Source of the DNA: a virus
Virus genome (UHGV): UHGV-0214148
Strand: one strand, 5' to 3'
Length of the DNA stretch: 64,000 nucleotides
Numbering within the stretch: the stretch's first letter is position 1; each line of letters begins with the position of its first letter. Shown here one piece after another: positions 10,815 to 26,099 of the stretch. The position numbers and the translations under genes are program-made. The notes beneath the pieces were generated by a model. It did no database searches and was not told the origin of the DNA. It saw only the letters and a list, made by a program, of their open reading frames with translations.

Positions 10815-10852
10815 GACAGACTGCCTGCGGGCAGTTGTGTGTCCGTAGGTAA

Positions 10853-10889
10853 CCCCTCCCTGTAATGGGGAGGGGTATCCATTTTATTT
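10853..10889 (+). terminator. intrinsic terminator
   Basis: Stem CCCCTCCC/GGGAGGGG (10853-10860/10868-10875) followed by a T-rich tract; a second short hairpin sits at 10820-10835. Confidence 0.6.
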
Positions 10890-10908: not shown

Positions 10909-13900
10909 ATGCCGAGAGAAGACGCGGCGCAGTTTAACGGTACGCTAAGCACAGCGACGTACCCTAACCGATTTAACGTGGTCATTCCGCCTGAAGGACC
11001 TTTTTATCGTATCGGATTAAAACTCACAGTAGCCGACGATACCGCGCCTAACGGACGTCGTACTCTGATTGAGGGGCTGGACTACTATTTAGGCTATTAC
11101 TTTAAAGAACTCGCCGAAGCTGAACAAGATCAGATTTATGGCGGGTTTATGTTGCTTACTGCAACAGAAATCGAATATGAGATTTTAGGGGTAGCACGGC
11201 AGTATCGTGTACCGCAATCTGAAATCGGGAAGTTCTTAGTTCGTACTGACCTGAAAGACCCACGTAACGTGGACTGGTCGGAGTTAATGGCGTACGCGCC
11301 GGTTATTCAACCAATCGACCCCCCTGCTAACTTAGAAGAAGCTATTCTGAGGGACGAGGTCGTTAAAGCGTTGAACGATATCCGCAAGAAAATCATTCAG
11401 CGTTCAACAGAGTTAGATGCGGCCTTCACCGAAGTCACTAACCTTATTTACGAGAACGGTAAAAAGATTTTCGATGAAGAACTATACCAACACCACCTTA
11501 ATCCTAACGCTCACCAGTATACGACCAATGACGTTGGGGCCCTTCCGGTTTTAGGACGTGCTGTTGACGCTACAAAAGCGTTTGGGTTGACAATTGACCA
11601 ACTGGCTACGCTGATGGGTTCGGCGGGCATTGAGCAATCAGACGTTGAACAGCTAATGGGTGAAGCCCTCGGTACCGTTTACGGTCGTTGGGGCACCACG
11701 AACGGTAACGAACTAACGTTTAAAACACCGGGTGGACACATCATCAGCATCCGTGGTGATAAGTGGTTAATTACCTCCCCGCAACCGTTAGTGATTAAAG
11801 CAGACCAAGACAACAACGAATCCGGTTTGGCGGTTGAGTTTAGTGCGGGACTGAATACGCTTTGGGTACACTCTGGGTCAGAACAGGATGTATTAGCACC
11901 GGTCTATAACTCTGTGTATCTCGTTACACCAGAAATGGTGAACATGTACCTGACGTCTGTAACGTTACTTGAAGCGAATGCCTATTTCAAACCGTCAGAC
12001 ACCGTAAAACCGTACGGTACAGCGAAGCAGTCTAACCCACTAACGTTGAACGCGAATATTCCCACAGCAACCGAGTCGGTTTATGGGGTGTTTTCGATTA
12101 CGAATATCGCAACCTCTGTAGCGCTAGGCACTGCTATTTCCCAAAAGGCTGTGACCGAGTTAAAAAACCGGTTGGACTTGTACGTTGACGACGACTACAC
12201 GGTTAACGGTAGAGGGTTTGTTAAGACAGGCGACAACATGGTGTTAACCTTAACGAAGGCCGATTTCGGTATCGATAAGATGAATAACACCACACCCATC
12301 GCTAAACCGGTAACAAAAGCATTAGCGAACGTGCTGAAAAATAAAAGTTTGAAGGTACACACGCACACTACCGCTGATTTGGATAATGTCCCGATTGGTA
12401 GCGCAACAGTGGACGGTATCTTACAGCTGTGGGATGCGATTGATACCACGAATGATAAAGCCGTCACATCACGCCAAGGGTGGCTGTTCGCAAAAGAGAT
12501 TAAGAAGGTCTCTGATAAACTGAATACCCTCTTGCCCGCATGGACAACGGCCGGGAGCAAATATACCAACAATTCGATATTGCCGATCTTGTCGATGGGT
12601 AATTACGAAGGTTATGGTAAAAACATGGATGCGCTCCAGATGGTTATAGGGGTACAACAAGGTAAGCTTTATGCTTTAATTAGCTCTAAATCCGCCCTTC
12701 CGGGAACCGAGGGTATTTATTACGCCGTTGCCGGGTTAAAAAACGACAAAAGTCTTGGTGAAATTTACAAAACAACGTTCCGTTATAAGCCGAAAGGGTT
12801 AGAGACGAATTATCCTGGGGTGGAACTAAAAGAAATTACCGTTACGGGTACCGAAGCATTTATAGCGAAAGGCAGCGACGATAATTACTATTTAGTTAAA
12901 CTGAACGGTTCAATGGATTACACCAAACATACCGATGTCAGGTTGGTAACTTTCTCAGAATTTGTTTCAGAAACAACATGGGAATTTGTGCCGAATATGT
13001 TCATGGATCGTGTGGTCATAGCCGATAACGGCGTCTATGTTTTGCGTACGATGCTAATGGCCGATCTGAAAAACAATAGTCTGGTGGACTACATTAAGGA
13101 TACTCCGCAACCTATGTTCCGTGTTGGGTTATTGCGACTTAATAAAACCGATCGGTTTGAACAGGTTGATTTAAGCTCTACACGAAAAATCGGTAAGTGT
13201 GCCGATTTGGTTGAACCTGGCGCGTTCGATGTAGATAATCCGAATACGAAGCGTCTTGCCTACTTCACTGCGGAAGGCAAAGCGTTGTGGACAGTGAATT
13301 TACAATTAACTAGAGGGGTGTCAAGATGGATAACGCCCGTTGTTAAGGACGGTAATCTGTTAACCGTCGGCGTGTCTGGCGTTTGTCTTGGTTTTTCTTC
13401 AACGAAAGGTACCACATTCGGGCCATGGAATGGTGCTTATCGTCTCGACCTATTAACCGGGGAGGTTGGGTTAGAGACAACTAACATCTTCCCAATCAAA
13501 ATCGATACTACAGGTTGCTACTTAAAAGACGGAACAAAAATAGAGCTGAAATGGAAATGGGCTACTCGAAGTTCTGGCTATATGGCCGACAATAGAATCT
13601 GTGTCGGTGATATGGTTTATTCTTGCTGCTGTTCGACAGAAAAACAACTTGCACCGTCTCTCCATTACCAGAAACTCCCAGAAGGAGTTAGTTATCTGGA
13701 CTATGTTAAGTTGAGTGCGGGGTATGAGGGGCAATCTACGTTTGAAAATCGGATAAACCCTGTGGTGGGTTCGGTGTGGAAACCGTCTATGACTCTACCA
13801 TTGTTCTTCCCAGGAACAAACAAAGTATGGCTTAAACATCAAAAAACGGCTTATTTCATTGAAGCCGAATATGATAAAGATACGACTTATGGTTATCCTG

Positions 13901-16095
13901 GATACGGCGGGTTTGGACCAACATCCCGCCGTGTTGAAAAAAAAGCGAACGAATACGGCGTATTGACAAATATACCGCTGGTTGTTACGCCAGACATACC
14001 GAAAGGTCTACTAGATGGGGCTTACTTTATCGGTGCTGAAAGTAAACCATGTAAAGTTGTTTACGGTACCACTACGGTGGCTAGTGATCGGTTGTCTATC
14101 GATGCGGCAGAATGGGCGAAGTTGACTAATATTGTTCAGTCCAGCCAGTTCTCTGGGGCTTCTAACGGCAACGCCTATGAGCGGATTAGCGTAGCTAAGA
14201 CCAAAAAGAACAACTACAGTTTGTCCTTTTGGGTGCTTGGTCAAACGATGTCTGGTGGTCCGCTTTGTATCGCGATAGTGAGTCTTATCTATAAAGACAC
14301 TGACGGGGTAAATAAGTTTGCTTTTTACTTCTTTCAGGTAAAACCGACTATAACCAACGGGGTCATAAGGTTCGTTAGTTCGGAAGCGAGAATGATGACG
14401 TTCAGGGAAAAAATGGCCAGTAACGCCATTAATCTCTCACCCACAGCTTTTAATGGTGAACTTAAACAACGCTCCGGTCAAGTTTTCCTTTATTCGCAAG
14501 ACGGACAAAAGTTCAGATTCTCAATACATAACCTGGTTGGCGGGAATCTTGTAGGATCAGAGATTTCTTTTGCTTTTGGGATAAACTTGACTAAAAAAGG
14601 AGAATGGTTTACCGGCGAAATTCATCGGGCGTGGGGCTATACGTATACGCTGAATAATACATCTGAAGTCTATATACCCGATCTCTCGGGCATCGCGCTA
14701 TTGACTTGTAACTCGGAAGATTTAAACGAGTTGTATCTCGGTGGCGAACAGTATAGAATCTCTGATTTGTTTAACAAAAAATATACTGTTATCGATAAGA
14801 TTATTATTGGCGGCGTACAAACACAGAGCGGTTGGAATTTCTATCTGACGGAGGAAACCGAGTTAAGTTTTGGAAATAAAAGATATACCGTTCCAAGATG
14901 GTCCGTTGATTTAAGCGATGAATTCCCGACTAATCACGCTAACCAGACATTCTACGTTTATGCTGAAGTGGTCGGTTCTACTGCCCAATACCGCATCGGT
15001 TTAGAGCAGTTAGCTGATACCTCGTCGAGACTGTTTGTTGGGACAGTAACCACTGATTCGAACCGTATTACGGATATCAGTATCGATAAAGTAAAACGGT
15101 TAGGTCGTGTAAAAGAGCTGGAAAATCATGCCTCGGTTGTTGATCAGCACGATGTGGCGCAGGCGTTCGACAGGAAAACTGGTCCACTATTAACAGTGGT
15201 TAATAAACCCGTTAAAGCCATTACAGCATCTGCGAGCAAGGGTGCTGGGTATGTCGATGGCCAGAAATGGAATACGTTGTCCGGGATTGCAACGCGGCCC
15301 AGGTTGCCGGTACAGGAAACCTATTCAGGTTATAAAAGTATCAGCAGGGTGGCGTATGAGAACTGCGCTGACCAGTTCTGGCAGAAAGCGGTTGCTGCGA
15401 ACGTTGCAGCGGCTACTGCTTCTGAGAACAAACAAGCAGCAACCGCGAACATGAAGTGGCTGGGCGCGTATACGAGACCGACTACCGGTGCGAGTGTGTG
15501 TCTGGTACTAAGTCTACGTGTTAAAGTACCTGGTAATCCCGGCACCGCTAATCGTAGACTGAAAATCAGGCTTGCGGCTCCGACAGGTATAACTGAAGTT
15601 CGTTACGGGTTAAATCAGTCTGGCGGTACGATGGCTGAACAGACAGTAACGTTGACTGCCAACAGTTATCTGGAAAAAGAGCACGCCGGATTTAAGCCAG
15701 CCGAAGAAGTTCGTGTTCATGCTACCTTTGTCATTCCAAAAAATGAATACGAGAGTTACCGTACGAAGTTCGGTGCGGTTCAGTTGATTGACGTTGAATC
15801 GAACACTGTCATTAAACAGACAGATATCGACACACCGTTTTTCGTGTACACCGCCACGGAGCAAGCGGCACAATCTGGTTTGGTGTATAAAGCGGTTAAG
15901 AGTCAGTTTCGTCAACTCCCGGCTCAACCTGTCGTCATTGTAACTGATGGACAGACAGGGACTACGCCACCGGTGAAAACCTCGTTTGCTGACGGGACAT
16001 TAACGGTCTACGTGGCAACCACGTACGACGCGGTTAACCCAGCACAAACACGCGATATCGACAAGCTCCAGTTCAATCTTATGTTTACATCTTAA
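10909..16095 (+). CDS. tail fibre protein (1728 aa)
   Basis: AGGAG SD; N-terminal PPEGPFY...GLDY motif; fibre motif GIDKMNNTTPIAKPVTKAL...KVHTH. Confidence 0.7.
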   Translation: MPREDAAQFNGTLSTATYPNRFNVVIPPEGPFYRIGLKLTVADDTAPNGRRTLIEGLDYYLGYYFKELAEAEQDQIYGGFMLLTATEIEYEILGVARQYRVPQSEIGKFLVRTDLKDPRNVDWSELMAYAPVIQPIDPPANLEEAILRDEVVKALNDIRKKIIQRSTELDAAFTEVTNLIYENGKKIFDEELYQHHLNPNAHQYTTNDVGALPVLGRAVDATKAFGLTIDQLATLMGSAGIEQSDVEQLMGEALGTVYGRWGTTNGNELTFKTPGGHIISIRGDKWLITSPQPLVIKADQDNNESGLAVEFSAGLNTLWVHSGSEQDVLAPVYNSVYLVTPEMVNMYLTSVTLLEANAYFKPSDTVKPYGTAKQSNPLTLNANIPTATESVYGVFSITNIATSVALGTAISQKAVTELKNRLDLYVDDDYTVNGRGFVKTGDNMVLTLTKADFGIDKMNNTTPIAKPVTKALANVLKNKSLKVHTHTTADLDNVPIGSATVDGILQLWDAIDTTNDKAVTSRQGWLFAKEIKKVSDKLNTLLPAWTTAGSKYTNNSILPILSMGNYEGYGKNMDALQMVIGVQQGKLYALISSKSALPGTEGIYYAVAGLKNDKSLGEIYKTTFRYKPKGLETNYPGVELKEITVTGTEAFIAKGSDDNYYLVKLNGSMDYTKHTDVRLVTFSEFVSETTWEFVPNMFMDRVVIADNGVYVLRTMLMADLKNNSLVDYIKDTPQPMFRVGLLRLNKTDRFEQVDLSSTRKIGKCADLVEPGAFDVDNPNTKRLAYFTAEGKALWTVNLQLTRGVSRWITPVVKDGNLLTVGVSGVCLGFSSTKGTTFGPWNGAYRLDLLTGEVGLETTNIFPIKIDTTGCYLKDGTKIELKWKWATRSSGYMADNRICVGDMVYSCCCSTEKQLAPSLHYQKLPEGVSYLDYVKLSAGYEGQSTFENRINPVVGSVWKPSMTLPLFFPGTNKVWLKHQKTAYFIEAEYDKDTTYGYPGYGGFGPTSRRVEKKANEYGVLTNIPLVVTPDIPKGLLDGAYFIGAESKPCKVVYGTTTVASDRLSIDAAEWAKLTNIVQSSQFSGASNGNAYERISVAKTKKNNYSLSFWVLGQTMSGGPLCIAIVSLIYKDTDGVNKFAFYFFQVKPTITNGVIRFVSSEARMMTFREKMASNAINLSPTAFNGELKQRSGQVFLYSQDGQKFRFSIHNLVGGNLVGSEISFAFGINLTKKGEWFTGEIHRAWGYTYTLNNTSEVYIPDLSGIALLTCNSEDLNELYLGGEQYRISDLFNKKYTVIDKIIIGGVQTQSGWNFYLTEETELSFGNKRYTVPRWSVDLSDEFPTNHANQTFYVYAEVVGSTAQYRIGLEQLADTSSRLFVGTVTTDSNRITDISIDKVKRLGRVKELENHASVVDQHDVAQAFDRKTGPLLTVVNKPVKAITASASKGAGYVDGQKWNTLSGIATRPRLPVQETYSGYKSISRVAYENCADQFWQKAVAANVAAATASENKQAATANMKWLGAYTRPTTGASVCLVLSLRVKVPGNPGTANRRLKIRLAAPTGITEVRYGLNQSGGTMAEQTVTLTANSYLEKEHAGFKPAEEVRVHATFVIPKNEYESYRTKFGAVQLIDVESNTVIKQTDIDTPFFVYTATEQAAQSGLVYKAVKSQFRQLPAQPVVIVTDGQTGTTPPVKTSFADGTLTVYVATTYDAVNPAQTRDIDKLQFNLMFTS

Positions 16096-16135
16096 CGCCA
16101 CGGGACAAGGACGTCTCGGATTAAGGAGAGTGGCC

Positions 16136-17335
16136 ATGGCCTCCATTGTATACCAATACCCTTTAGATTTAACGGGAAGCCTAACCTCTAACGCCGTGGA
16201 GCGTCAGGTTACGTTAGGTACAGGTAAAGTTAACCGTGCGTTTGCTTTTCCTGATGGACCGTTTTATGCTGATACGTTCCGCTTGCGGGTTGCTAACCGA
16301 CCCGATGCGACGTATGAGCGCGGAACGGACTATGAGTTGATTTTTGCACACCCGGCTTACGAGAAATTGACGAAGAACCGGGAAGTGGTAATGGCGGTTG
16401 TTGTAACGAACACCGCGATTCCGACCGATATCACGGTATCGGCGCAAGTAGTCGGGGGCCCGCAGTCGGCAAACGTGACTGCGATAGAACAGGCGATTGC
16501 TGAGTTGAATCTCGATAATCGAACTGTTGGCTTTAAAGACTTGCGAAATGTTCCTGATACATTTCCGTCGGCACCGACGTATAAAGACGTCGGCGATATT
16601 TACGGCTTCGAATATATCATTACAGTGCTCGCTGGCATTAAAGATGCGATAACGGCGGGCGATGCTGTACAGCTTGAGAACATCAAAGCGATTCTCGAAA
16701 GCCTGAAAAACGATTTCCTGGACGCACTGAACGCGCACATTAACGCCACGGGTAACGTCCACCATCTGGACATTCATCAGGTTAACGGGTTAACGGAAAC
16801 GGAGATCCGTGCACTGATTCGTGACGTACAGTCTGCCATCGATGCAACGATTGCCGATATCAATGCATTGAAGAAAGCGGACGAAGCGTTAGGAAAACGT
16901 ATTGATGCTGTTGTCAAATCTTTGGAAGCGTGGAACGACCAACTTAACGTCGTTGCACAAAACTACCAGAAAATGGCACTGGCAATGGCGAACCTAAACT
17001 CGTTAGTGTTACAGTTACAGAAAAATATCAACGATCTGAGCACCAAACTCAACCAAGCGATTCAACGTATTGCTGCGTTAGAACAGCGGGGTAATGAGTC
17101 CGATCAGAAAATTGATAAACTGCAACAAAACCTGGATGCGCTTAAACAGCAGGTTAATAATAACACGAACGCAATCAGTCAGGCGAACCAGAACCTGCAA
17201 AACCATATTGCGGCAGATAACCCACACACAGGCTATCTCCACAAGAAATACGGTGGTGTGGTTCAGGCTCCAGTACACGTTAACGCTAACTTGACGTCCC
17301 GTGATGACGTTCAGGCAGAAGCGGGTACGAAATAA
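16136..17335 (+). CDS. short coiled-coil tail-fibre-like protein (399 aa)
   Basis: AAGGAG 7 nt upstream of ATG 16136 (track GTG 16130 is too close to the SD); N-terminal FPDGPFY...GTDY motif; long heptad-like Q/L/N-rich segment. Confidence 0.6.
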   Translation: MASIVYQYPLDLTGSLTSNAVERQVTLGTGKVNRAFAFPDGPFYADTFRLRVANRPDATYERGTDYELIFAHPAYEKLTKNREVVMAVVVTNTAIPTDITVSAQVVGGPQSANVTAIEQAIAELNLDNRTVGFKDLRNVPDTFPSAPTYKDVGDIYGFEYIITVLAGIKDAITAGDAVQLENIKAILESLKNDFLDALNAHINATGNVHHLDIHQVNGLTETEIRALIRDVQSAIDATIADINALKKADEALGKRIDAVVKSLEAWNDQLNVVAQNYQKMALAMANLNSLVLQLQKNINDLSTKLNQAIQRIAALEQRGNESDQKIDKLQQNLDALKQQVNNNTNAISQANQNLQNHIAADNPHTGYLHKKYGGVVQAPVHVNANLTSRDDVQAEAGTK

Positions 17336-17345
17336 CTTTATTACA

Positions 17346-17390
17346 GGAGGAACTATGCTTATGGGCGTAGTCCTCCATTCTTTTTTATTT
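17346..17390 (+). terminator. weak hairpin plus T-tract, possible attenuator
   Basis: GGAGGA...TCCTCC inverted repeat with a large loop followed by CTTTTTTATTTT. Confidence 0.3.
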
Positions 17391-17402
17391 TAAGGATACG
17401 TG

Positions 17403-17798
17403 ATGGCGATCAGTGTTAAAAATGTACGTGACCGAATCACCAACGTAGAGAACCAAATGGCAACTGGCCCACGTGTTGATCCGCAAGTTGCGTCGAAAGC
17501 ACATAATGCCGCCGACACTTTTTCGGGTTGGACGCCAAGTCGGTTAGACTGCGGGGGAAGTTGCAGCTGGACGTGCTCAAACGGCTGTACGCACGGCTGT
17601 ACGAGTTGTTCGGGCACCTGTACGTCAGTATGTGTAGGTAGCTGCTCCTCTGCGTGCGGTAACCAGTGTACTGGATGTAGTTCAACATGTTCCGGCGGCT
17701 GTTCAGGTTGCAGTGGGACCTGTGGGGGTGCTTGCTCGGGCCGTTGTTCTACGGGTTGTTCTGGTGCTTGCTCTGGTGGCTGTTCTGGCCCAACCTAA
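17403..17798 (+). CDS. Cys/Gly/Ser-rich precursor-like protein 1 (131 aa; about 50-aa leader plus 21-Cys core)
   Basis: AGGA 6 nt upstream of ATG 17403; leader ISVKNVRDRI...; core starts DCGGSCSWTCS and continues with Cys every 3-4 residues. Confidence 0.6.
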   Translation: MAISVKNVRDRITNVENQMATGPRVDPQVASKAHNAADTFSGWTPSRLDCGGSCSWTCSNGCTHGCTSCSGTCTSVCVGSCSSACGNQCTGCSSTCSGGCSGCSGTCGGACSGRCSTGCSGACSGGCSGPT

Positions 17799-17808
17799 GA
17801 GGTGAAAA

Positions 17809-18207
17809 ATGGCAATTGGATTACCTGCGCTACAAGCGCGGCTAAATAACATTGACAACACTGCATTGAAGAATACGGGTGCAGTGCAAAACTATATTCG
17901 TGGGAAAGCGACGAACAACGCAGACTTATTCGGTGGACAAGCTCGCAACCATTACGACTGTGGTGGGAGCTGTAGCTGGACCTGTTCGAGCTGTTCTGGT
18001 GGTTGTACAGGGAACGCATCAGGCGGCTGTGGTTCTTCGTGTTCTGCAAACTGTGTATCAGGTTGCAGCGCAGGCTGTAGCGGATGTTCGAATACATGTT
18101 CTGGTGGCTGCTCAGGAAGCTGTACGGGGAGTTGTTCTAACTCGTGTGTGGGAAACTGTTCTTCAGGCTGTTCGGGCAGTTGTTCTGGTGGGTGTTCTGG
18201 GAGGTAA
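17809..18207 (+). CDS. Cys/Gly/Ser-rich precursor-like protein 2 (132 aa; 20-Cys core)
   Basis: GAGGTG SD; same core start HYDCGGSCSWTCS; paralogue of the previous gene. Confidence 0.6.
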   Translation: MAIGLPALQARLNNIDNTALKNTGAVQNYIRGKATNNADLFGGQARNHYDCGGSCSWTCSSCSGGCTGNASGGCGSSCSANCVSGCSAGCSGCSNTCSGGCSGSCTGSCSNSCVGNCSSGCSGSCSGGCSGR

Positions 18208-18209
18208 TT

Positions 18210-18416
18210 GTGATTAGCCTTAAGAACCTTCGTGATCGATTAGTAACAGCGGAAGGGTATATTACGACCGCTAACGCAAACAACTATATTGCAAACCAGG
18301 GCACCGTGTCTTCAACCAATAACCTTGCCGGTTTACCTTTAAGCCATTATAACTGTAACGGCGGATGTAGCTGGTCGTGTAGCGGTAGCTGTAGTAAAGG
18401 TGCGGGGGGAAGGTAA
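18210..18416 (+). CDS. Cys-rich precursor-like protein 3 (68 aa, short core with 5 Cys)
   Basis: GTG 18210 with GGGAGG 5 nt upstream, directly after the previous stop; leader ISLKNLRDRL resembles the leader of peptide 1; core HYNCNGGCSWSCSGSCS. Confidence 0.5.
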   Translation: MISLKNLRDRLVTAEGYITTANANNYIANQGTVSSTNNLAGLPLSHYNCNGGCSWSCSGSCSKGAGGR

Positions 18417-18565
18417 CTAAGCCCTCCAGTGGTAGTATGTCTATTACGCAATAACCGAGTTAATCGTACGGGTTTACTGCTGAGTTTCAAGTTACCGGTA
18501 GGCAATGGCGCGGTGGGTTCTATACCCTGAATGTCCGTTTGACCGTGAAATAATTGGAGCAATCA

Positions 18566-19453
18566 ATGAAGAATGATTTACATTTAGCGTACAAAACAAT
18601 TTTCAATCATCCACTTCACATTTCTTCCCCTGATTCCGTACGTGCACACTTAGCAGATGAAGTTCGTCTGCTGACTCAGTTGCCGGGCGAATGGCCTAAA
18701 GTGCGCGGACGTTTCTTTACCGATCGTAAAAACTATCGTGTAGAAAATACGTTTAAGATTCGTGATCTGACGGCAGAAAGTGTGGTGGTCTTTACCGGTG
18801 ACTCCGAGTTGCGTGGTAAACTGGTTGCGGGTAAATATTTCTTTAGTGACGGGATTTTGAATAACTCCGTAGATATGGAATTGTTCTTTACCCCATTTGA
18901 AGAAATGGGCGCAAAACCGGTTGCCCGTCGTTGGTGGTCACCGGATTACTTAGGCTCGTTCCCGTATTTCTTTACCCTGGTAACACCAGAAACGAAGAAC
19001 TATTTCGATACGGAATCGTATATCGAAATTGAAGGGTACGAAGCGTTAGGGATTAATTGCTTAGCGGATTTAATGGCGTATAGCTATAAGTTCGTGTGGG
19101 ATCGTGAACGTTCCGTGTGGGTTGCCCTGACAGATGAACACGAAATCACAAAACGCATCCGTAAGCCTTGGATGCAGCATTTGATTCAAACACGTGTTGG
19201 CGAGCATCCGTCAACAGAAGCGGATCTGGCAAAACTCGTTAGTTTCTTAATGACGAAAGTCACGTTAACTAACGAAGAGAAAGCAGCAGTGTCGGCGGTG
19301 TTGGACCGTAACGTAACGTTGGCGGATTTAGAACGTTTAAATGTCCGTTATAAAGACCTTAACCGTATTTTGGAAGCGTATAACTCTCCATTCTTGTTAA
19401 CCCCTGGTGCTAACGTAGACGACGATCCTTTGTTCGCCATTGATTATATTTAA
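18566..19453 (+). CDS. hypothetical protein (295 aa) in the radical-SAM cassette
   Basis: GGAG SD upstream of ATG 18566; no recognisable motif; sits between the precursor-like genes and the radical-SAM genes. Confidence 0.55.
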   Translation: MKNDLHLAYKTIFNHPLHISSPDSVRAHLADEVRLLTQLPGEWPKVRGRFFTDRKNYRVENTFKIRDLTAESVVVFTGDSELRGKLVAGKYFFSDGILNNSVDMELFFTPFEEMGAKPVARRWWSPDYLGSFPYFFTLVTPETKNYFDTESYIEIEGYEALGINCLADLMAYSYKFVWDRERSVWVALTDEHEITKRIRKPWMQHLIQTRVGEHPSTEADLAKLVSFLMTKVTLTNEEKAAVSAVLDRNVTLADLERLNVRYKDLNRILEAYNSPFLLTPGANVDDDPLFAIDYI

Positions 19454-19474
19454 AAACGACCGGAGTCACCTGCA

Positions 19475-20398
19475 ATGACAACCAATGCAGAACCAAGGTT
19501 ATCGAATCGTTTATACGATAAACCCACCGTATTGTCCGTAGTCGCTACGTCCAAGTGCAACCTGGATTGTAGCTTCTGCGGTGGAGCCTATTACATGAAT
19601 CGTGAAGATTCTCCGCGAGAGTTTCAACGTGAGCGAATTTTGGAAGCGCTGGAAGCTAATCCAACCATTACCGAAATTCAGTGGACGGGTGGTGAGCCAT
19701 TACTGGCAACCCGTAAAATTGAGGCGTTTGTTGACGAATTAAAAGTGATTCGTCCAGAACTCAAACACCAGTTGTATACCAATGGCTTAAAGATGCGTAA
19801 ATCGCATCTCCCGTTGCTAAAACAGTTTGACAATGTCTACGTTAGCATCGATGGGTTTAAGTCGTCTGAGCGCCCGTTTATGCGCTTTATTGACGAAGGC
19901 TGTTACGAAGCACTGGAAACGATCTACGAGCTGGATAATGTCCAGACTTGGGGTGTCCTGACACGGGACCGTTTAGGGGACAAACGCTGGCACGAAGATA
20001 TTATTCAGCTGCACAGCGCGATTTACCATTACGGTTTCCGTGCAATGACGTTACTCTTAGATGCGAAAATGCCAAAACCTTTATCGCCCGACCACGTCAT
20101 GAACTTTATTTACGGCTACTATCAGGTTCAGGATAACATTGAACGACTGAATGTAGTAAATAGTCGTGAATGCGGCTTTACGGTAAGTAAAGTGTTTGAA
20201 GAAGGGTGTAACGTTTGCAGCGAAAGTCTTTGGATTAATGCAGACGGTGGTGAGCACCAACTCCAGAATGCACCTAACGTTCTGGAATCGGGATGTAACC
20301 AACTGGCCTTCTCTATCGGTGTAGAGGCGTACGAATATATTCGTCGCGTAGTGATGGCAGGGCGTAATAGAGGGGCGGCAAATGAGTCAAGTAAATGA
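19475..20398 (+). CDS. radical SAM enzyme (307 aa)
   Basis: N-terminal CNLDCSFC (CxxxCxxC) cluster and TGGEPLL SAM-binding motif; extra C-terminal cysteines (CNVC...C). Confidence 0.8.
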   Translation: MTTNAEPRLSNRLYDKPTVLSVVATSKCNLDCSFCGGAYYMNREDSPREFQRERILEALEANPTITEIQWTGGEPLLATRKIEAFVDELKVIRPELKHQLYTNGLKMRKSHLPLLKQFDNVYVSIDGFKSSERPFMRFIDEGCYEALETIYELDNVQTWGVLTRDRLGDKRWHEDIIQLHSAIYHYGFRAMTLLLDAKMPKPLSPDHVMNFIYGYYQVQDNIERLNVVNSRECGFTVSKVFEEGCNVCSESLWINADGGEHQLQNAPNVLESGCNQLAFSIGVEAYEYIRRVVMAGRNRGAANESSK

Positions 20399-21704
20399 AT
20401 TCCCTAAGCAGTTAACGTATCAGATCGTAACCAACCTTTCGTGTAACCTGGACTGCGAATATTGTTACGAACGTAAGTACCCGCGTAACAACAAAGCGGC
20501 GGATATTGTTGATTTCTTACACGCCTGTTTTGAACGTGATAAAAACGAACCGAATGTTGAAGTTATTATCGACATTATCGGTGGTGAGCCGTTCATGCAG
20601 CCTAAACTGCTGCTGGCTGCGTTTGAAACCGCTGAGCAGTTGTGTAAAGAACACAACCGACCGTTTATGTTTAGTATCTCCACGAACGGAACGCTGTTAG
20701 ATCGTCCGTTGAACCGTGAGATTGTAGAACGTTGGAAAGACAAACTTTCGGTTGGGGTTTCGATTGACGGCTTACCTGAGTCCCATGACCGTTATCGTAT
20801 CTTCACAACAACACGCCAGGGTTCTTACGAAGCCGCAGTACGTGGCTATAACTACTTAAAAGAGGTTGGCATTGCAGAGCTCGGCGTAAAAGCAACCTTT
20901 ACGTTAGAAACGCTGCCGTTCTATGCTGCGGGGATGAAGTCATTAATTGACATTACTGGCGGTGGGACAATTTCTGGAAACGTAACTTTCGAAGACGTTA
21001 TGCCACGTAGCATGGCGACGTCAATCGCTTTACAGATGATGGATGTGATAGATTACTGGGTTGAGAAAGGATTACACACCAACCCACGTAATATCTTATC
21101 GCACATCATTCCAGAAGGGTTGGATTTCGATACGATTTGGGAACCGAACTGGCGTGACCAGTTACTGTATAATGACACCGTACGGTTGAACCCAGAACGT
21201 TTACGTCCGTTCTGTGGGACGTTAACGCACATGACGTGCTTAGGGTTTGACCGTAAGATCTTTGGCTGTAACCGCTTTATGTCAACGGTAACGTCGCGTT
21301 CTGCGGTGTTTGAGTTGGTAGGTCGGGAATTCGTCAGTCTGGACAACGGTAAATTGTTAGAAGAGATTCAAACGCAATATACCAACTACCCAGAGACCTG
21401 TTTAGGTTGTCCGATGAAACACGCTTGTGGTAGCTGCGCGGCTGCTTCTTACGAGAACGGGGAAGGAACGTTAGAAGACCGTAAAGCGTATCACGCTGAA
21501 CGACGTCAGTGCGGCTGGACGACAGCGAAACTGATGGTGGCGGAATACTGGAAACAGAAGATGGGTACGACGTCAGCAAAAGCGTTCCATGACACGAGCA
21601 TGTGTTATTGCCCACGCTGTGTTCGTGAACGTGCCCAAAAGGAAAAATTATTAAGAGAAGCCAAAGATGAAACCAATTCTGATCAACAATATTACGAAGC
21701 GTAG
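20382..21704 (+). CDS. radical SAM enzyme with SPASM-type C-terminal domain (440 aa)
   Basis: N-terminal CNLDCEYC and GGEPF motifs; C-terminal CLGCPMKHACGSC plus further Cys pairs; start overlaps the upstream gene by 17 nt. Confidence 0.8.
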   Translation: MSQVNEFPKQLTYQIVTNLSCNLDCEYCYERKYPRNNKAADIVDFLHACFERDKNEPNVEVIIDIIGGEPFMQPKLLLAAFETAEQLCKEHNRPFMFSISTNGTLLDRPLNREIVERWKDKLSVGVSIDGLPESHDRYRIFTTTRQGSYEAAVRGYNYLKEVGIAELGVKATFTLETLPFYAAGMKSLIDITGGGTISGNVTFEDVMPRSMATSIALQMMDVIDYWVEKGLHTNPRNILSHIIPEGLDFDTIWEPNWRDQLLYNDTVRLNPERLRPFCGTLTHMTCLGFDRKIFGCNRFMSTVTSRSAVFELVGREFVSLDNGKLLEEIQTQYTNYPETCLGCPMKHACGSCAAASYENGEGTLEDRKAYHAERRQCGWTTAKLMVAEYWKQKMGTTSAKAFHDTSMCYCPRCVRERAQKEKLLREAKDETNSDQQYYEA

Positions 21705-22239
21705 AATTCGACTTCTGGATAAGTTTCTGGAAAACAGTAAGCTATTCGGTTGTTATGTGGTGATTAACGGTGAAGATTTTACCGATGACGTAAAACGCTT
21801 ACTGATTCGTCACGGCGTGACTGTAATCATCCCAATGTACTGCACCGAACTTACTGACCTGTCGGTCGCGGAAATTGAAAAACGTAACCCAGGGTTTGAA
21901 GAACGGGTATTGGATTTCCCACGTCACAAAATTGCGTTTCTACGCCGCTCTTTAAGCGAACCCAGCGCAGAATCTATCACTGTGTTGGCATTGTCCTTCC
22001 CCGGCATTACTATCTTCGCAACACGTAACCCGAACTCACCGATTGATGGGTTTTACGATGAGCGGGAGAAATTTAATAGCGTGATTTTTCCTGAGCTAAC
22101 GCCAGAAGAATGCCAGGGTATCCGTATCGATTGGGAATCTGACTTCGACACAAGATTCCGTCATATCGATTTTGAACTGTTAATCGAATTAGGGTTGATT
22201 AAAGGAGACGATGAATGTCTGCTACTGGTGAAGGCTTAA
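21667..22239 (+). CDS. hypothetical protein (190 aa), translationally coupled to the radical-SAM genes
   Basis: ORF overlaps the upstream gene by 38 nt; no motif recognised. Confidence 0.5.
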   Translation: MKPILINNITKRRIRLLDKFLENSKLFGCYVVINGEDFTDDVKRLLIRHGVTVIIPMYCTELTDLSVAEIEKRNPGFEERVLDFPRHKIAFLRRSLSEPSAESITVLALSFPGITIFATRNPNSPIDGFYDEREKFNSVIFPELTPEECQGIRIDWESDFDTRFRHIDFELLIELGLIKGDDECLLLVKA

Positions 22240-22886
22240 CGAAAGAAGAAATCCGTCGCCGTTATTTTGCGCACGATTTACCGATCGACCGTCATGGTAA
22301 CTACATGGAGAAAATCGGTAGCGAAGATCACGGCCGTACAGGGTTTTGTGCGTTACTGCACTATAAGCTGATTGATGGGATGTCTGATCGCGAAGCATTG
22401 GAACAAATGCGTAACTACGACATGTCTGAAATCGAAGCACGGTTTACGCTACAGAAAGCGAAAGACTTTGTTAACGACACGTTGGGGATTGACCTGGAAG
22501 AAATTCGTGCAGGTTTACGTTCCACGGTGCGGTACATCTTTACCGATGTTCAGAAAATTCTAAGCGCTTTGGAATTCCGTTATCAGGATGCACGCTATGC
22601 TGAGATTCAGGTAGGTGATTTCACTTTCCAGGCAGATGAGAAGTCACAGGTAGCACTGAGTCGTTATATCCAGTCAGAAACTGCGCCAGCGTATTGGTTA
22701 ACGGCTAACAACACCCGTATCGAACCGTTTACGTTAGAACAGTGCAAGACGTTGCTGGCAGCAATCGTTGAGCGTGATCAAAGACTACACCACGCAATGT
22801 CTGAGCAGAAAAGAGAAGTCAGGGCTTGGGCTGAAGCACGTGATTACGATTCGATAAAAGCGTTTGCGTTAGAGCAAGGGCTGTAA
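22215..22886 (+). CDS. hypothetical protein (223 aa)
   Basis: AAAGGAG 7 nt upstream of ATG 22215; overlaps the previous gene by 25 nt; last gene before the bidirectional terminator. Confidence 0.55.
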   Translation: MSATGEGLTKEEIRRRYFAHDLPIDRHGNYMEKIGSEDHGRTGFCALLHYKLIDGMSDREALEQMRNYDMSEIEARFTLQKAKDFVNDTLGIDLEEIRAGLRSTVRYIFTDVQKILSALEFRYQDARYAEIQVGDFTFQADEKSQVALSRYIQSETAPAYWLTANNTRIEPFTLEQCKTLLAAIVERDQRLHHAMSEQKREVRAWAEARDYDSIKAFALEQGL

Positions 22887-22911
22887 TCGACAGCGAAAAA
22901 AAAAAACAGTA

Positions 22912-22951
22912 TACCTACCTCCCGTAATAGGAGGTAGGTATTTTTATTTTT
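22912..22951. terminator. bidirectional intrinsic terminator at the strand switch
   Basis: 11-bp stem TACCTACCTCC/GGAGGTAGGTA, A11 run upstream, T-rich run downstream. Confidence 0.7.
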
Positions 22952-22953
22952 TC

Positions 22954-23484
22954 TTAGGACGTAAAACCGTCCAGCTCACCGTTGGTGGTGGCCAGGTCAA
23001 TACGATTATCAACAACCTTCGGCGTAATTACGAAAGTTGCCATTACACCTGGCTTATAACGGAGGTTCTTTTCAGTAACGGTACACGTTACCGTACGCAG
23101 AGTGACGCTATCGTGTTCGTCTTTCTGGTCTTCGGTGGTGTACTCAACGTCACCAGGTGCGATAGAGTCGTCAGGTTTTACTTTATTGATGTAAAACTGT
23201 AATCGGTCGCGTAGTTCGTTTTCTCCAGTCCAGAGAGCCAAATCGTCCGTTACCTCAATGCGTCCGACAACGCCAGGTTCCAGACGATCGTAATGCAGTT
23301 CGATTGCGCCTTTAAAATTTTCAGACTCTGTACGTGCGGTCATGGTAACTTTGGTATTTTTATCGCCCTTTTCAAGAGCGACAGGTTGACCAAAAGTTAC
23401 CTCTTTATCAGTGACCTGATGCGGTAGCTCTGTGTTAGCAGCATTATAAAGCGCAACTAACATCATCTGGTTAGTAGCTGCCAT
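22954..23484 (-). CDS. hypothetical protein, paralogue family A (176 aa)
   Basis: Shares NFKG..E.HY.RL and TNGELDGFT blocks with 23552..24082. Confidence 0.6.
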   Translation of the reverse strand: MAATNQMMLVALYNAANTELPHQVTDKEVTFGQPVALEKGDKNTKVTMTARTESENFKGAIELHYDRLEPGVVGRIEVTDDLALWTGENELRDRLQFYINKVKPDDSIAPGDVEYTTEDQKDEHDSVTLRTVTCTVTEKNLRYKPGVMATFVITPKVVDNRIDLATTNGELDGFTS

Positions 23485-23551: not shown

Positions 23552-24082
23552 TTACTCTTTAGGCGCTGGTGCGGTGAAGCCATCCAGTTCACCTTCCAAA
23601 CCGTTCAGTGCTACTTTCTCAATAGCTGGAGGGGTAACTTTATACGTCGCAACAGTACCTGGCAGGAACTTCAAGTGGCCAGCCACAACCGTTACCACGT
23701 AAATGGTTTTGCCTTCTTCTTCACGAGAGATAGTTTGCAGGTCGTTTTCACCGAACTCGTCATCGGTGTACCCTTTCTCAGCCATGGCTGCGTTAACTTT
23801 CGCCAGGATTTTCGTCGGTGAATCGAAATCGGTAGTAGGTGCAGTTACTTCAACTTCACCAACGATGTCGCAGGAAAGACGAGTATAGTGGAATTCTTTC
23901 TCGCCTTTGAAGTTCTGGCTTTCTGCCTTGGCGGTCAGAGTAATTTTAGTGTTGCGGCCAGCTTCTCCGGTGAACTCAGCGACAGCACTAAAATTAACAT
24001 CATTTACAGTCAGCTTAGAAGCAGTTTGGTTGTTTTTAGCAATTACAATCTCGATAAGCTGCTGTTGAAAAGTTTTAGCCAT
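23552..24082 (-). CDS. hypothetical protein, paralogue family A (176 aa)
   Basis: Start moved to ATG 24082 (MAKTF...), which has a GAGGT SD and gives the same length as its paralogue; the track start is 24118. Confidence 0.55.
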   Translation of the reverse strand: MAKTFQQQLIEIVIAKNNQTASKLTVNDVNFSAVAEFTGEAGRNTKITLTAKAESQNFKGEKEFHYTRLSCDIVGEVEVTAPTTDFDSPTKILAKVNAAMAEKGYTDDEFGENDLQTISREEEGKTIYVVTVVAGHLKFLPGTVATYKVTPPAIEKVALNGLEGELDGFTAPAPKE

Positions 24083-24222
24083 TGTTTTTACCTCGTAAGT
24101 AGTATGGGTGGTTTGCATAGTATTGTTCGGATTATAGAAGTGTTGTTAATAGTTATGACAGACAGCAGTAAGGGTTGTCTGTAAAATTATTATTTTTTAA
24201 CTTTTTATAGAAGGGTGAAAAC

Positions 24223-24820: not shown

Positions 24821-25336
24821 TTAAATCTCGACTAAGGCGCTCCAATCGATTGGTTTTTGCTTAACAACCTTCACAGTACCTCGATTTGGTGACCAGAAAG
24901 TAATGTTAGGCTGGTTACGAACGTCGATGTGTAACCAACTGATGTCACATTCAATAAAGTGAATGAACGGAAACTCGTCAGGGTTAGCAGCGATATAGTC
25001 GTGGACCTGTTTTACGGTGCTATCCAGCAACGTTGCATCAATGGCGTTACCGAATTTGTGTTGACTTCCTGAATCGGCGTAAAGCTGCAACGCACGTTGT
25101 TTATAACTACCGCCCTTAGGCTTTTCTTGATTAATAAAGAAGTCTAAGGTTCTTAGTCCGCGTTGTTGTGCAGCGGTTGAGTTAATGACCATTCTACCGA
25201 AACGATTACGAATCTGCTGTAGCGAAATCATTAACAACGGATTCATAAACCGAATTGCAGAATCGCCGTATTTGGCAATATAAGACTGTGGTACTAACTC
25301 TTTGAGTTTAAAGTTACTCGGATTTGGATGAAACAT
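24821..25336 (-). CDS. L-alanyl-D-glutamate peptidase-type endolysin (peptidase M15/LAS family)
   Basis: SQHKFGNAIDA (H-x6-D) and WLHID zinc-ligand motifs, as in T5-type endolysins. Confidence 0.6.
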   Translation of the reverse strand: MFHPNPSNFKLKELVPQSYIAKYGDSAIRFMNPLLMISLQQIRNRFGRMVINSTAAQQRGLRTLDFFINQEKPKGGSYKQRALQLYADSGSQHKFGNAIDATLLDSTVKQVHDYIAANPDEFPFIHFIECDISWLHIDVRNQPNITFWSPNRGTVKVVKQKPIDWSALVEI

Positions 25337-25988
25337 CTTCCCTCCCAGACAGAAAAGCCCGTTTGATGTTCAGGTATTTGACATTAACGGGACATTCTGT
25401 GGTGATATCAATACGTTCGTGGTCAGGGATTGCAGGTTCCTTAAACTCGCGAACGAATAAATAGTTTCGATTGTAATCTAACGTACGAAACGCGTTAGTG
25501 CTGTAGGATGGCTTTGCATTAGGATCTGCGTAGGCATCCCAGCCGAATTCAACAACGGCCTTATAAAATGTTTGGCAGATATAAGGCGAGATTTCCAACG
25601 ACTGCATAATACGCAGGAAAGTTAAGTCAGAGAACTCTTTATCGATGAAACGCGAAACGTTACCACCCGGTGTCATGGGATAGCTACGCTCCGTGTTGCA
25701 TTTTTGATAGAGTAAGTCGTGAATACAGGCCGCAGGTGCCCACGGTCCGTCAGGATGGAAAATTCCCTGGAGGTGTTCAGGAATTGACGCTAAATCAGTA
25801 ACGAACCCTTTCGGTGCTGTTAACCACAGTTGTGTGTCAGGCAATACACCCGTTAAATAAACCGCACGGTCTAAGTGTACGTGGTCGTGATATATCTCAC
25901 GTAACGTAAACGGATAATGGTAATCCTCCGTTAATACAAACCACTTATTGTCTAAACGTTTATATTGAAGCTTCTCCATTACCCACAC
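25314..25988 (-). CDS. DUF1353-like protein
   Basis: FVTDLASIP...HD..Y block resembles the DUF1353 signature (recalled from memory). Confidence 0.45.
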   Translation of the reverse strand: MWVMEKLQYKRLDNKWFVLTEDYHYPFTLREIYHDHVHLDRAVYLTGVLPDTQLWLTAPKGFVTDLASIPEHLQGIFHPDGPWAPAACIHDLLYQKCNTERSYPMTPGGNVSRFIDKEFSDLTFLRIMQSLEISPYICQTFYKAVVEFGWDAYADPNAKPSYSTNAFRTLDYNRNYLFVREFKEPAIPDHERIDITTECPVNVKYLNIKRAFLSGREDVSSKSE

Positions 25989-25994
25989 CTTCCC

Positions 25995-26099
25995 TTATAG
26001 AAACCAGAAAAATTCGTATCCACGCTTTTCGTCTTTACGTTTCCGCCCAGACGTTAACGCTTTCCACAATAGTGCTAAGAGTTTAGCAAACCAGTTCAT
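25995..26099 (-). CDS. possible 34-aa membrane peptide (MNWFAKLLALLWKALTSGRKRKDEKRGYEFFWFL)
   Basis: ATG overlaps the stop of the muramidase gene (ATGA); hydrophobic N-terminus then a basic tail; too short for the ORF track. Confidence 0.3.
   Translation of the reverse strand: MNWFAKLLALLWKALTSGRKRKDEKRGYEFFWFL

What the first reader, a model, noticed from the sequence alone, without database searches (positions are those of the whole stretch)
21667..22886. Two overlapping unknown genes closing the cassette
The 190-aa and 223-aa ORFs overlap each other and the SPASM enzyme gene (38- and 25-nt overlaps), so they are co-translated with the maturases. They may be an export, immunity or peptidase component, or a fibre-assembly factor. 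Neither matches anything I recognise.
Basis: inference. Interest (0 to 1): 0.45.

Follow-up and report, generated by a model that had tools for sequence, protein, structure and literature searches.

The report
Radical-SAM partner protein plus tail-fibre chaperone
The two overlapping genes at the end of this jumbo-phage operon are real and conserved: the last one belongs to a known family of tail-fibre folding chaperones, and the one before it is an orphan protein that always travels with, and is probably a helper subunit of, a phage radical-SAM enzyme that modifies cysteine-rich peptides.

Summary
ORF190 (21667-22239) and ORF223 (22215-22886) overlap the SPASM radical-SAM gene by 38 nt and each other by 25 nt, and a hairpin terminator follows. 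The window is an SPN3US-like jumbo phage; the ORFs are orthologues of SPN3US gp162 and gp161. Both overlaps, the start codons and the gene order are conserved in all 62 related phage genomes. Both genes are under strong purifying selection.

ORF223 is not unknown. It carries a C-terminal DUF4376 domain (E 5e-11), the domain found in experimentally validated trans-acting tail-fibre chaperones such as Alteromonas phage V22 gp27. It is absent from divergent cassettes that lack gp168-type fibres or whose fibres carry their own intramolecular chaperone.

ORF190 belongs to a tiny orphan family, with 29 representatives among 1.84 billion proteins. It always lies immediately downstream of the SPASM maturase, even where the DUF4376 gene and the fibre genes are missing. 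Its confident model is a partial (beta/alpha) barrel closest to radical-SAM cores, but it has no CxxxCxxC motif. I read it as a cluster-less accessory subunit of the maturase.

Neither protein is membrane-bound, and SPN3US gp161 and gp162 are absent from the virion proteome. Export and immunity roles are not supported.

The parts
21667..22239 (+). ORF190, orthologue of SPN3US gp162 (phrog_7988). A soluble 22-kDa acidic protein predicted to form a partial (beta/alpha)6-7 barrel resembling a radical-SAM core, without a CxxxCxxC motif. It is an invariant downstream partner of the SPASM maturase.
22215..22886 (+). ORF223, orthologue of SPN3US gp161 (phrog_8169). A predicted trans-acting tail-fibre chaperone with a helical N-terminal part and a C-terminal DUF4376 domain.
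22584..22847 (+). DUF4376 (PF14301) domain of ORF223, aa 124-211. It contains the F-Q-x-D..S / W-L-x-x-N / P-F-T core shared with V22 gp27.
21667..21704 (+). 38-nt dual-coding overlap between the rSAM1 C-terminus (...DQQYYEA*) and the ORF190 N-terminus (MKPILINNITKR). It is nearly invariant at DNA level across genera.
21653..21660 (+). Purine-rich SD-like element (AAGAGAAG) 6 nt upstream of the ORF190 ATG. The orthologous position in relatives is GGAG or GAGG.
22202..22207 (+). Shine-Dalgarno AAGGAG, 7 nt upstream of the ORF223 ATG and inside the 3' end of ORF190.
22215..22239 (+). 25-nt overlap between ORF190 and ORF223 (22-25 nt in all relatives).
22911..22941 (.). Bidirectional intrinsic terminator: a 12-13 bp hairpin flanked by an A-run and a T-run. 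It closes the + strand operon and the convergent - strand gene.
20382..21704 (+). Context: rSAM1, a radical SAM/SPASM maturase (orthologue of SPN3US gp163). It is closest to the PapB and CXXX-repeat-target maturase families. CxxxCxxC lies at aa 21-28, so there is no N-terminal RRE.
19475..20398 (+). Context: rSAM2, the second radical SAM enzyme (orthologue of SPN3US gp164).
18554..19453 (+). Context: a 299-aa protein of unknown function (phrog_8030, orthologue of SPN3US gp165), a conserved member of the peptide module.
17400..18416 (+). Context: three CxxxC-repeat precursor-like ORFs (17400-17798; 17809-18207; and a short third one most likely starting at GTG 18210 and ending at 18416). They belong to phrog_6085 and are orthologues of SPN3US gp166.
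10909..17335 (+). Context: the candidate chaperone clients at the head of the operon. These are the 1728-aa fibre/baseplate-periphery protein (orthologue of SPN3US gp168) and the 401-aa coiled-coil virion protein (orthologue of gp167).

Best explanation
The two genes have different jobs but are produced together from the 3' end of one late operon that starts with tail-fibre genes.

(1) ORF223 is a DUF4376-type intermolecular tail-fibre chaperone. It has a lineage-specific N-terminal part and a C-terminal DUF4376 module. In validated relatives, that module caps the fibre tip and drives trimerisation, in the manner of the intramolecular Peptidase_S74 chaperone domains. Its most likely clients are the gp168-like 1728-aa fibre and/or the gp167-like 401-aa virion protein encoded upstream. 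It is not retained in the virion.

(2) ORF190 is a dedicated, non-structural accessory protein of the CxxxC-repeat peptide maturation module. It is made in step with the SPASM radical-SAM maturase through a conserved 38-nt translationally coupled overlap. It has a radical-SAM-core-like partial barrel that has lost, or never had, the Fe-S/SAM-cleaving cysteine motif. I infer that it binds the maturase as a non-catalytic subunit, for substrate presentation or stabilisation, because neither rSAM has an N-terminal RRE.

Shown: gene reality, the overlaps, conservation, co-occurrence, DUF4376 membership, the fold class, and absence from the SPN3US virion. Inferred: the identity of the chaperone client, physical association of ORF190 with rSAM1, and its non-catalytic nature.
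For: ORF223:
- Pfam DUF4376, E 4.8e-11 at aa 124-211.
- Weak PHROG hits to tail fibre/tail protein families.
- RefSeq already labels SPN3US gp161 as DUF4376.
- V22 gp27, an essential fibre chaperone, is DUF4376 at aa 87-187 with the same size and architecture. It aligns with the ORF223 profile over the core motifs, hhalign E 6e-4.
- The CJIE1 H-fibre also needs its downstream DUF4376 protein.
- The DUF4376 gene is present wherever gp168/gp167-type fibre genes are present (62 phage records; L024). It is absent where no such fibre is nearby (L020/21) or where the fibres carry Peptidase_S74 in cis (L023).

ORF190:
- Only 29 representatives in 1.84e9 proteins, all 170-204 aa.
- Strict 62/62/62 co-occurrence with rSAM1 and ORF223 among isolated phages.
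- It lies immediately downstream of the rSAM1 orthologue, with overlapping stop and start, in every divergent context. That includes contexts with permuted gene order and no DUF4376.
- AF2 model pLDDT 83, pTM 0.80. The fold is reproduced by the independent BFVD model of the Kwan orthologue, TM 0.83-0.86.
- Foldseek: the top non-self viral hits are rSAM maturases, prob 0.96-0.98.
- There is no CxxxCxxC and only 4 scattered Cys.

Both:
- pN is far below pS.
- SPN3US gp161-166 are absent from the 86-protein virion proteome, whereas gp160 and gp167-173 are present.
- Both are soluble and acidic.
Against: - ORF223 is separated from the fibre genes by eight ORFs, whereas validated DUF4376 chaperones sit directly after their fibre gene.
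- No sequence-level hit to any solved structure was found.
- The direct hhalign probability with V22 gp27 is only 29%.
- No Pfam or NCBIfam family matches any of 24 members.
- A nearly invariant Ser66, the RNPGFE motif and a mostly conserved Lys88 could mark a catalytic site rather than an interface.
- No physical interaction has been tested.
Confidence: 0.55

Rival explanations
1. ORF190 is an enzyme in its own right. It would be a small TIM-barrel-like hydrolase or tailoring enzyme, for example a leader peptidase, or an esterase or amidase acting on the modified Cys-rich peptide. It would carry out a step after the two radical-SAM enzymes.
Against: No His/Asp/Cys/metal-ligand constellation is conserved across the family. 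Judged from the secondary-structure positions, the conserved residues lie on both faces of the barrel. No profile hit to any enzyme family was found. The best structural neighbours are rSAM cores rather than hydrolases.
Confidence: 0.22
2. Both proteins are tail-fibre assembly factors. ORF190 would be a second, clade-specific fibre chaperone, and its link to the radical-SAM genes would be only positional.
For: Both genes sit in a fibre operon and are absent from virions. In most contexts the cassette is embedded among fibre genes.
Against: In L020/L021 the ORF190-like gene follows the rSAM pair and the CxxxC peptides with no fibre or DUF4376 gene within 10 kb on either side. In L023 the gene order is permuted, yet rSAM1-ORF190 adjacency is kept. 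The fold is unlike that of known fibre chaperones.
Confidence: 0.1
3. ORF223 acts on the Cys-rich proteins rather than on the large fibres. It would use its DUF4376 module to oligomerise or cap the matured CxxxC-repeat products, which might themselves be thin fibre-like virion components.
For: ORF223 is closer to the peptide and rSAM genes than to the fibre genes and is translationally coupled to them. A cross-linked, K/R-free Cys-rich core would escape tryptic MS, so its absence from the virion proteome is not conclusive (inference).
Against: The peptide module exists without any DUF4376 gene in L020/21 and L023. All validated DUF4376 chaperones serve large trimeric receptor-binding fibres.
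Confidence: 0.1
4. The genes are export, immunity or self-protection components for a secreted antibacterial RiPP.
For: Many RiPP clusters end with transport or immunity genes (general knowledge). The rSAM is closest to ranthipeptide-type maturases.
Against: Neither protein has a transmembrane segment, a signal-like hydrophobic stretch or an ABC/peptidase domain. There are no PADLOC hits. ORF223 belongs to a morphogenesis chaperone family.
Confidence: 0.03

Closest known systems
DUF4376 (PF14301) intermolecular tail-fibre chaperones: Alteromonas phage V22 gp27, phage A5 gp9, Campylobacter CJIE1 H-fibre chaperone
   Same: ORF223 has the same Pfam domain at the C-terminus, the same size class (195-240 aa), and the same architecture of a variable N-terminal part plus DUF4376. 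The shared core motifs align. It is encoded in a fibre operon and is not a stable virion component in SPN3US.
   Different: ORF223 is not immediately downstream of a fibre gene. It is the last gene of an operon in which a complete radical-SAM/Cys-rich-peptide module lies between the fibre genes and the chaperone, and it is translationally coupled to ORF190. Its N-terminal 120 residues are specific to the SPN3US clade. Its function is untested.
Peptidase_S74 intramolecular chaperone domains of phage fibres and tailspikes (K1F endosialidase, T5 pb1)
   Same: The literature reports that DUF4376 chaperones structurally resemble these domains (PMC10579305). In L023, fibres carrying Peptidase_S74 replace the combination of a trans DUF4376 gene and gp168-type fibre next to the same rSAM module.
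   Different: ORF223 is a separate polypeptide, with no Pfam S74 hit and no autoproteolytic Ser context tested.
Radical SAM superfamily core domain (PF04055), e.g. the PFL-AE domain 3CAN, viperin, anSME, SuiB, CteB
   Same: ORF190 is predicted to adopt the same partial (beta/alpha)6 barrel. rSAM cores are its best structural neighbours in two independent libraries and with two methods. It is encoded next to two bona fide rSAM enzymes.
   Different: ORF190 has no CxxxCxxC loop after beta1 and no conserved GGE-type motif across the family. It shows no sequence-profile similarity to the Pfam Radical_SAM family or to the neighbouring rSAMs. It cannot bind the catalytic cluster in the canonical way.
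CXXX-repeat peptide / radical SAM maturase system (TIGR04114/TIGR04115; PF27846) and PapB-type ranthipeptide maturases
   Same: The module ORF190 belongs to has CxxxC-repeat precursors and a SPASM maturase. That maturase scores best against these families, at E 1e-33 and 6.5e-33. A relative's precursor is flagged PF27846.
   Different: All scores are far below the curated cut-offs (115-117 bits against 340-350). The phage module adds a second rSAM, a 299-aa protein and ORF190, none of which is part of the family definitions I could consult. The product chemistry is unknown.
RiPP recognition elements (PqqD-like RRE) and other non-catalytic partner subunits of rSAM maturases
   Same: The proposed role is analogous: a small dedicated partner of a leader-dependent rSAM maturase. 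Neither phage rSAM has room for an N-terminal RRE, because the Cys motif starts at aa 21-28.
   Different: The fold is a beta/alpha barrel, not a winged helix, and there is no PqqD hit. The analogy is inference only.

Membership tests
DUF4376 (PF14301) family | Significant match to the Pfam model above the gathering threshold | tested here: met
   ORF223 aa 124-211, E 4.8e-11, 43.5 bits against a cut-off of 25. All 12 full-length homologue clusters (P0013-P0024) carry precomputed PF14301.
DUF4376-type tail-fibre chaperone (V22 gp27-like) | About 190-240 aa, with a variable N-terminal part and a C-terminal DUF4376 | tested here: met
   ORF223 is 223 aa with DUF4376 at 124-211. V22 gp27 is 195 aa with DUF4376 at 87-187. 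The core motifs align.
DUF4376-type tail-fibre chaperone (V22 gp27-like) | Encoded immediately downstream of its client fibre gene | tested here: not met
   Eight ORFs (16130-22239) lie between the 1728-aa fibre gene and ORF223. It is in the same terminator-bounded + strand unit, with terminators at 10852-10876 and 22911-22941.
DUF4376-type tail-fibre chaperone (V22 gp27-like) | Co-occurs with a fibre that lacks its own intramolecular chaperone | tested here: met
   Present with gp168/gp167-type fibres in 62 phages and in L024. Absent in L023, where the fibres carry Peptidase_S74, and in L020/21, where there is no fibre nearby. The sample of divergent contexts is small.
DUF4376-type tail-fibre chaperone (V22 gp27-like) | Required for folding or activity of the fibre; binds the fibre tip | not testable with these tools
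   This needs co-expression or mutant analysis. The only indirect evidence is that SPN3US gp161 is absent from purified virions.
Caudo_TAP / Tfa (PF02413) tail-fibre assembly proteins (lambda Tfa, Mu U) | Match to the PF02413 model | tested here: not met
   Neither ORF hits it at E <= 0.1.
Radical SAM superfamily | CxxxCxxC (or variant) cluster-binding loop after beta1 | tested here: not met
   ORF190 has Cys only at positions 29, 59, 149 and 184. None is in a CX3CX2C arrangement and none is invariant across the family.
Radical SAM superfamily | Sequence-profile match to PF04055 or to related rSAM families | tested here: not met
   0 of 24 family members hit Radical_SAM at E <= 10. hhalign against the two neighbouring rSAM families gives probabilities of 0.1% and 1.3%.
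Radical SAM superfamily | Partial (beta/alpha)6 TIM-barrel core fold | tested here: met
CXXX-repeat rSAM peptide-maturation module (phage form) | Gene is always found with the SPASM maturase and the CxxxC-repeat precursors | tested here: met
   ORF190: 62/62 phage records. In all 7 divergent metagenomic contexts it lies directly after the rSAM1 orthologue. CxxxC peptides were detected wherever the contig is long enough.
RiPP export/immunity proteins | Transmembrane segments, ABC/peptidase domains or a signal peptide | tested here: not met
   Maximum 19-residue hydropathy is 1.43 and 0.57, and there are no such Pfam or NCBIfam domains.

The most novel reading that the evidence does not exclude
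ORF190 founds a new class of 'pseudo-radical-SAM' proteins. In this reading it is a cluster-less derivative of the rSAM core that has become an obligate, stoichiometrically co-translated subunit of a phage SPASM maturase, replacing the usual RRE in recognising the CxxxC-repeat precursors. The whole module, finished by a DUF4376 chaperone, would build a covalently cross-linked cysteine-rich component needed for assembly or function of the jumbo-phage tail fibres. That would be a RiPP-type pathway used for virion morphogenesis rather than for a secreted natural product.
Probability: 0.2. Interest if true: 0.75.

Novelty: new variant of a known kind. Interest (0 to 1): 0.45.

Why it matters
Radical-SAM/SPASM peptide maturation is known from bacterial natural-product clusters. 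Here a complete module sits inside the tail-fibre operon of a whole clade of jumbo phages, including the genetic model SPN3US.

Separating the two terminal genes gives concrete, testable hypotheses. ORF223/gp161 is an ordinary fibre chaperone. ORF190/gp162 is an orphan, rSAM-fold but cluster-less partner that never leaves the maturase. SPN3US already has an amber-mutant and proteomics platform on which these can be tested.

If gp162 is a non-catalytic rSAM-derived subunit, it would be a new kind of accessory factor for RiPP-type enzymes. It would also be a handle for reconstituting the unknown chemistry on CxxxC-repeat proteins. If it is not, the result still assigns a function to one 'hypothetical protein' conserved in more than 60 phage genomes.

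Tried and rejected
- Sequence homology for ORF190: Pfam, NCBIfam and PADLOC gave no hits. Scanning all 24 family members against Pfam gave only scattered noise. Profile searches against PDB sequences gave only noise.
- Paralogy of ORF190 with the adjacent rSAM genes: hhalign was negative against both, and no better than against the unrelated ORF223 profile. I therefore do not claim that ORF190 descends from them.
- The apparent 'variant' homologues in SPFM6/7/8/12/14/20 (P0010-12, P0027-31) looked like a shuffled cassette. Their sequences are the normal proteins with blocks of about 20 aa in reversed order, so this is a record artefact.
- The afdb50 fold library was unavailable.
The closer alignment A2 found only clade members.
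- The SPN3US infection-proteome paper (JVI.01833-18) is not held, so I have no expression-timing data.
- No paper linking SPN3US-type phages, radical SAM and Cys-rich peptides was found.
- There are no tandem repeats at DNA level in the region.
Full report
**What the window is.** The region matches the SPN3US group of Salmonella, Erwinia and Cronobacter jumbo phages at about 72% nucleotide identity, and no record is closer. The + strand block from 10909 to 22886 is collinear with SPN3US genes 168 to 161:
- a 1728-aa fibre/baseplate-periphery protein (gp168 orthologue);
- a 401-aa coiled-coil virion protein (gp167);
- three CxxxC-repeat small ORFs (gp166 family, phrog_6085);
- a 299-aa unknown protein (gp165);
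- two radical SAM enzymes (gp164, gp163);
- ORF190 (gp162) and ORF223 (gp161).

The block is bounded by terminator-like hairpins at 10852-10876 and 22911-22941.

**Checking the observation.**
- Both ORFs exist with ATG starts at 21667 and 22215. The overlaps are 38 nt with the SPASM rSAM gene, which stops at 21704, and 25 nt with each other.
- ORF223 has a canonical AAGGAG 7 nt upstream of its start. ORF190 has a purine-rich AAGAGAAG 6 nt upstream.
- A 12-13 bp hairpin with T-runs on both strands follows at 22911-22941, so these genes do close the cassette.
- In 16 related loci from at least five genera, the homologous ATGs give overlaps of 38-41 nt and 22-25 nt.
- The first overlap is almost invariant DNA (AATGAAGTCA...TTTTACGAAGCGTAA). 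It encodes both the rSAM C-terminus (NEVxxDSQFYEA*) and the ORF190 N-terminus (MKSILIHNFTKR), with a GGAG-like element upstream.
- Non-synonymous divergence is far below synonymous divergence, which is saturated. Examples are pN 0.13 vs pS 0.89 for ORF190 and 0.25 vs 0.90 for ORF223.

Both are real genes under purifying selection and are very probably translationally coupled.

**ORF223.** It also has weak PHROG hits to tail fibre and tail protein families. RefSeq already names SPN3US gp161 a 'DUF4376 domain-containing protein'.

DUF4376 is the C-terminal domain of chaperones shown experimentally to be needed for functional receptor-binding fibres:
- Alteromonas phage V22 gp27 (PMC7289586; PMC10579305);
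- the protein downstream of the Campylobacter CJIE1 H-fibre (PMC7882524).

A5 gp9, the homologue in phage A5, co-elutes with its fibre but is dispensable in vitro. The same work reports that these chaperones resemble the intramolecular Peptidase_S74 chaperone domains.

I fetched V22 gp27. It is 195 aa with DUF4376 at 87-187 (E 3e-21). It aligns with the ORF223 profile over the core F-Q-x-D-x-x-S / W-L-x-x-x-N / P-[FM]-T motifs (hhalign E 6e-4, probability 29% with a single-sequence template).

**ORF190.**
- There is no Pfam, NCBIfam, PADLOC or PDB-sequence hit. The only match is the unannotated phrog_7988.
- The family is tiny. A word-indexed search of 5.8 billion proteins found 12 clusters. 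An exhaustive profile search of 1.84 billion representatives found 29, all 170-204 aa single-domain proteins.
- Across these, at about 25% identity, the conserved features are Ser66, an E-x-RNPGFE motif, P-x-x-K and LSFP.
- The AF2 model is confident (pLDDT 83, pTM 0.80) and consists of alternating beta/alpha units. The independent BFVD model of the Kwan orthologue superposes at TM 0.83-0.86.
- Foldseek against viral models again puts rSAM maturases first after the orthologue, at probability 0.96-0.98 and TM about 0.5.
- ORF190 nevertheless has no CxxxCxxC and only four scattered cysteines. No family member hits Radical_SAM. Profile-profile comparison with the two neighbouring rSAM families is negative.

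It therefore has an rSAM-like fold but fails the defining tests for membership.

**Context decides which module each gene belongs to.** Among isolated phages, ORF190, ORF223 and the rSAM1 orthologue occur in the same 62 records. The divergent metagenomic members are more informative (verified by phmmer):
- L019 and L018: rSAM1, then ORF190-like, then a DUF4376 protein.
- L024: the full cassette, including the fibre genes.
- L020/L021: CxxxC peptides, gp165-like, rSAM2, rSAM1 and ORF190-like. There is no DUF4376 gene and no fibre gene within 10 kb on either side.
- L023: the order is permuted (rSAM1, ORF190-like, peptides, gp165-like, rSAM2). The module lies beside fibres that carry Peptidase_S74 domains, and there is again no DUF4376 gene.

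So rSAM1 followed directly by ORF190, with touching or overlapping stop and start, is the invariant. The DUF4376 gene tracks the presence of gp168/gp167-type fibres that lack a cis chaperone.

**Other evidence.**
- In purified SPN3US virions, gp160 and gp167-173 were detected, but gp161-166 were not among the 86 proteins (PMC5694885, Supplementary Table 1).
- gp168 is a tail protein related to phiKZ gp131 at the baseplate periphery (PMC5105663).
- Both ORFs encode acidic soluble proteins without hydrophobic segments.
- Neither rSAM has space for an N-terminal RRE, because the Cys motifs begin at about residue 21-28.

**Interpretation.** ORF223 is most likely a trans-acting DUF4376 fibre chaperone for the fibre proteins encoded at the head of the operon. 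Family membership is shown. The chaperone function and the client are inferred.

ORF190 is most likely a dedicated, non-structural accessory subunit of the SPASM maturase within the CxxxC-peptide module. The linkage is shown. Physical association and a non-catalytic role are inferred from the cluster-less rSAM-like fold and the lack of a conserved catalytic constellation.

The main rival is that ORF190 is a small barrel enzyme performing a further tailoring or leader-removal step. Ser66 and Lys88 make this plausible. Export and immunity roles are effectively excluded.

**Novelty.** The sequences are already in more than 60 deposited genomes as hypothetical proteins, and one already carries the DUF4376 label. 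No paper in the searchable library discusses this cassette or these two genes. ORF223 is a new member of a known chaperone family in an unusual operon position. ORF190 is an uncharacterised family whose rSAM-like, cluster-less fold and strict coupling to a phage SPASM maturase have not, as far as I could find, been described. Overall I rate the finding as a new variant of a known kind and of moderate interest.

Noticed in passing
GenBank LR5359xx records of Salmonella phages SPFM6, SPFM7, SPFM8, SPFM12, SPFM14 and SPFM20 (proteins P0010-P0012, P0027-P0031); probably also SPFM1/5/9/15 (hits H25-H30): The gp161/gp162 homologues in these records consist of the normal sequence cut into blocks of about 20 aa in reversed order, e.g. 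MLDFGLLLELGLIEEDECL...PILIHNFTKRKLHLVDRFLR. This looks like a deposition artefact, with sequence lines in reversed order rather than reverse-complemented, and not a variant cassette.
   Followed up: partly
L001/L003 (SPN3US) 9911-10825 vs annotated 10031-10825; L004 (CR5) 9794-10669 vs annotated 9890-10669: The deposited start of the second radical SAM gene (SPN3US_0164, CR5_154) is too far downstream and cuts off the CNLDCSFC cluster-binding motif. The longer ORF restores it (MTDQVESR...TSKCNLDCSFCGG).
   Followed up: yes
window 22954-23484 (-) and 23552-24118 (-): The two convergent genes just past the terminator carry N-terminal DUF7941 (E 5e-9 and 9e-10). The first corresponds by position to SPN3US gp160, a very abundant virion protein (more than 300 copies) assigned to the head. 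A 2026 Goslar preprint proposes that DUF7941 proteins form a 'fiber cloud' at the peripheral baseplate. ORFs at 26758-27222 (-) and 27236-28084 (-) might be further paralogues, but I did not test them.
   Followed up: partly
window 17400-18416 (+): There are three CxxxC-repeat precursor-like ORFs: two full-length ones of 132 aa, and a short third one that most likely starts at GTG 18210 after a GGGAGG SD (68 aa) and keeps only the first C-x-G-G-C-S-W-x-C-S motif. The same 2+1 arrangement, with a 69-aa short copy, recurs in Wellington, CR5 and metagenomic loci L020 and L024. All share a conserved leader-like N-terminus (I-S-L-K-x-L-R-D-R-L) and the invariant CGGSCSW(T/S)CS junction.
   Followed up: partly
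window 18554-19453 (+): The 299-aa protein (phrog_8030, gp165 orthologue) has no Pfam, NCBIfam or PADLOC hit, but it is a conserved member of the peptide/rSAM module even in the most divergent contexts (L020 E 7e-29; L023 E 1e-3). It is another candidate leader-binding or tailoring component.
   Followed up: partly
window 25314-25988 (-) and 26096-26686 (-): A DUF1353 protein sits here; by position it corresponds to SPN3US_0157, which RefSeq labels 'tail assembly chaperone' but SPN3US proteomics detected in the head. Next to it is a GH108 + PG_binding_3 endolysin. The same DUF1353-plus-lysis-gene neighbourhood follows the cassette in the divergent locus L018.
   Followed up: no
L020/L021 5654-5875 and 12949-14565: The divergent phage contig that carries the rSAM/ORF190 module without fibres also encodes an Acb2/Tad1-hairpin anti-defence protein and a Cpn60/GroEL homologue nearby.
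   Followed up: no
window 20382-21704 (+), C-terminal 60 aa: Beyond the SPASM region, rSAM1 has a conserved extra Cys triad (C408, C410, C413) and a variable linker that ends in the invariant ...QFYEA tail. That tail is constrained by dual coding with ORF190.
   Followed up: no
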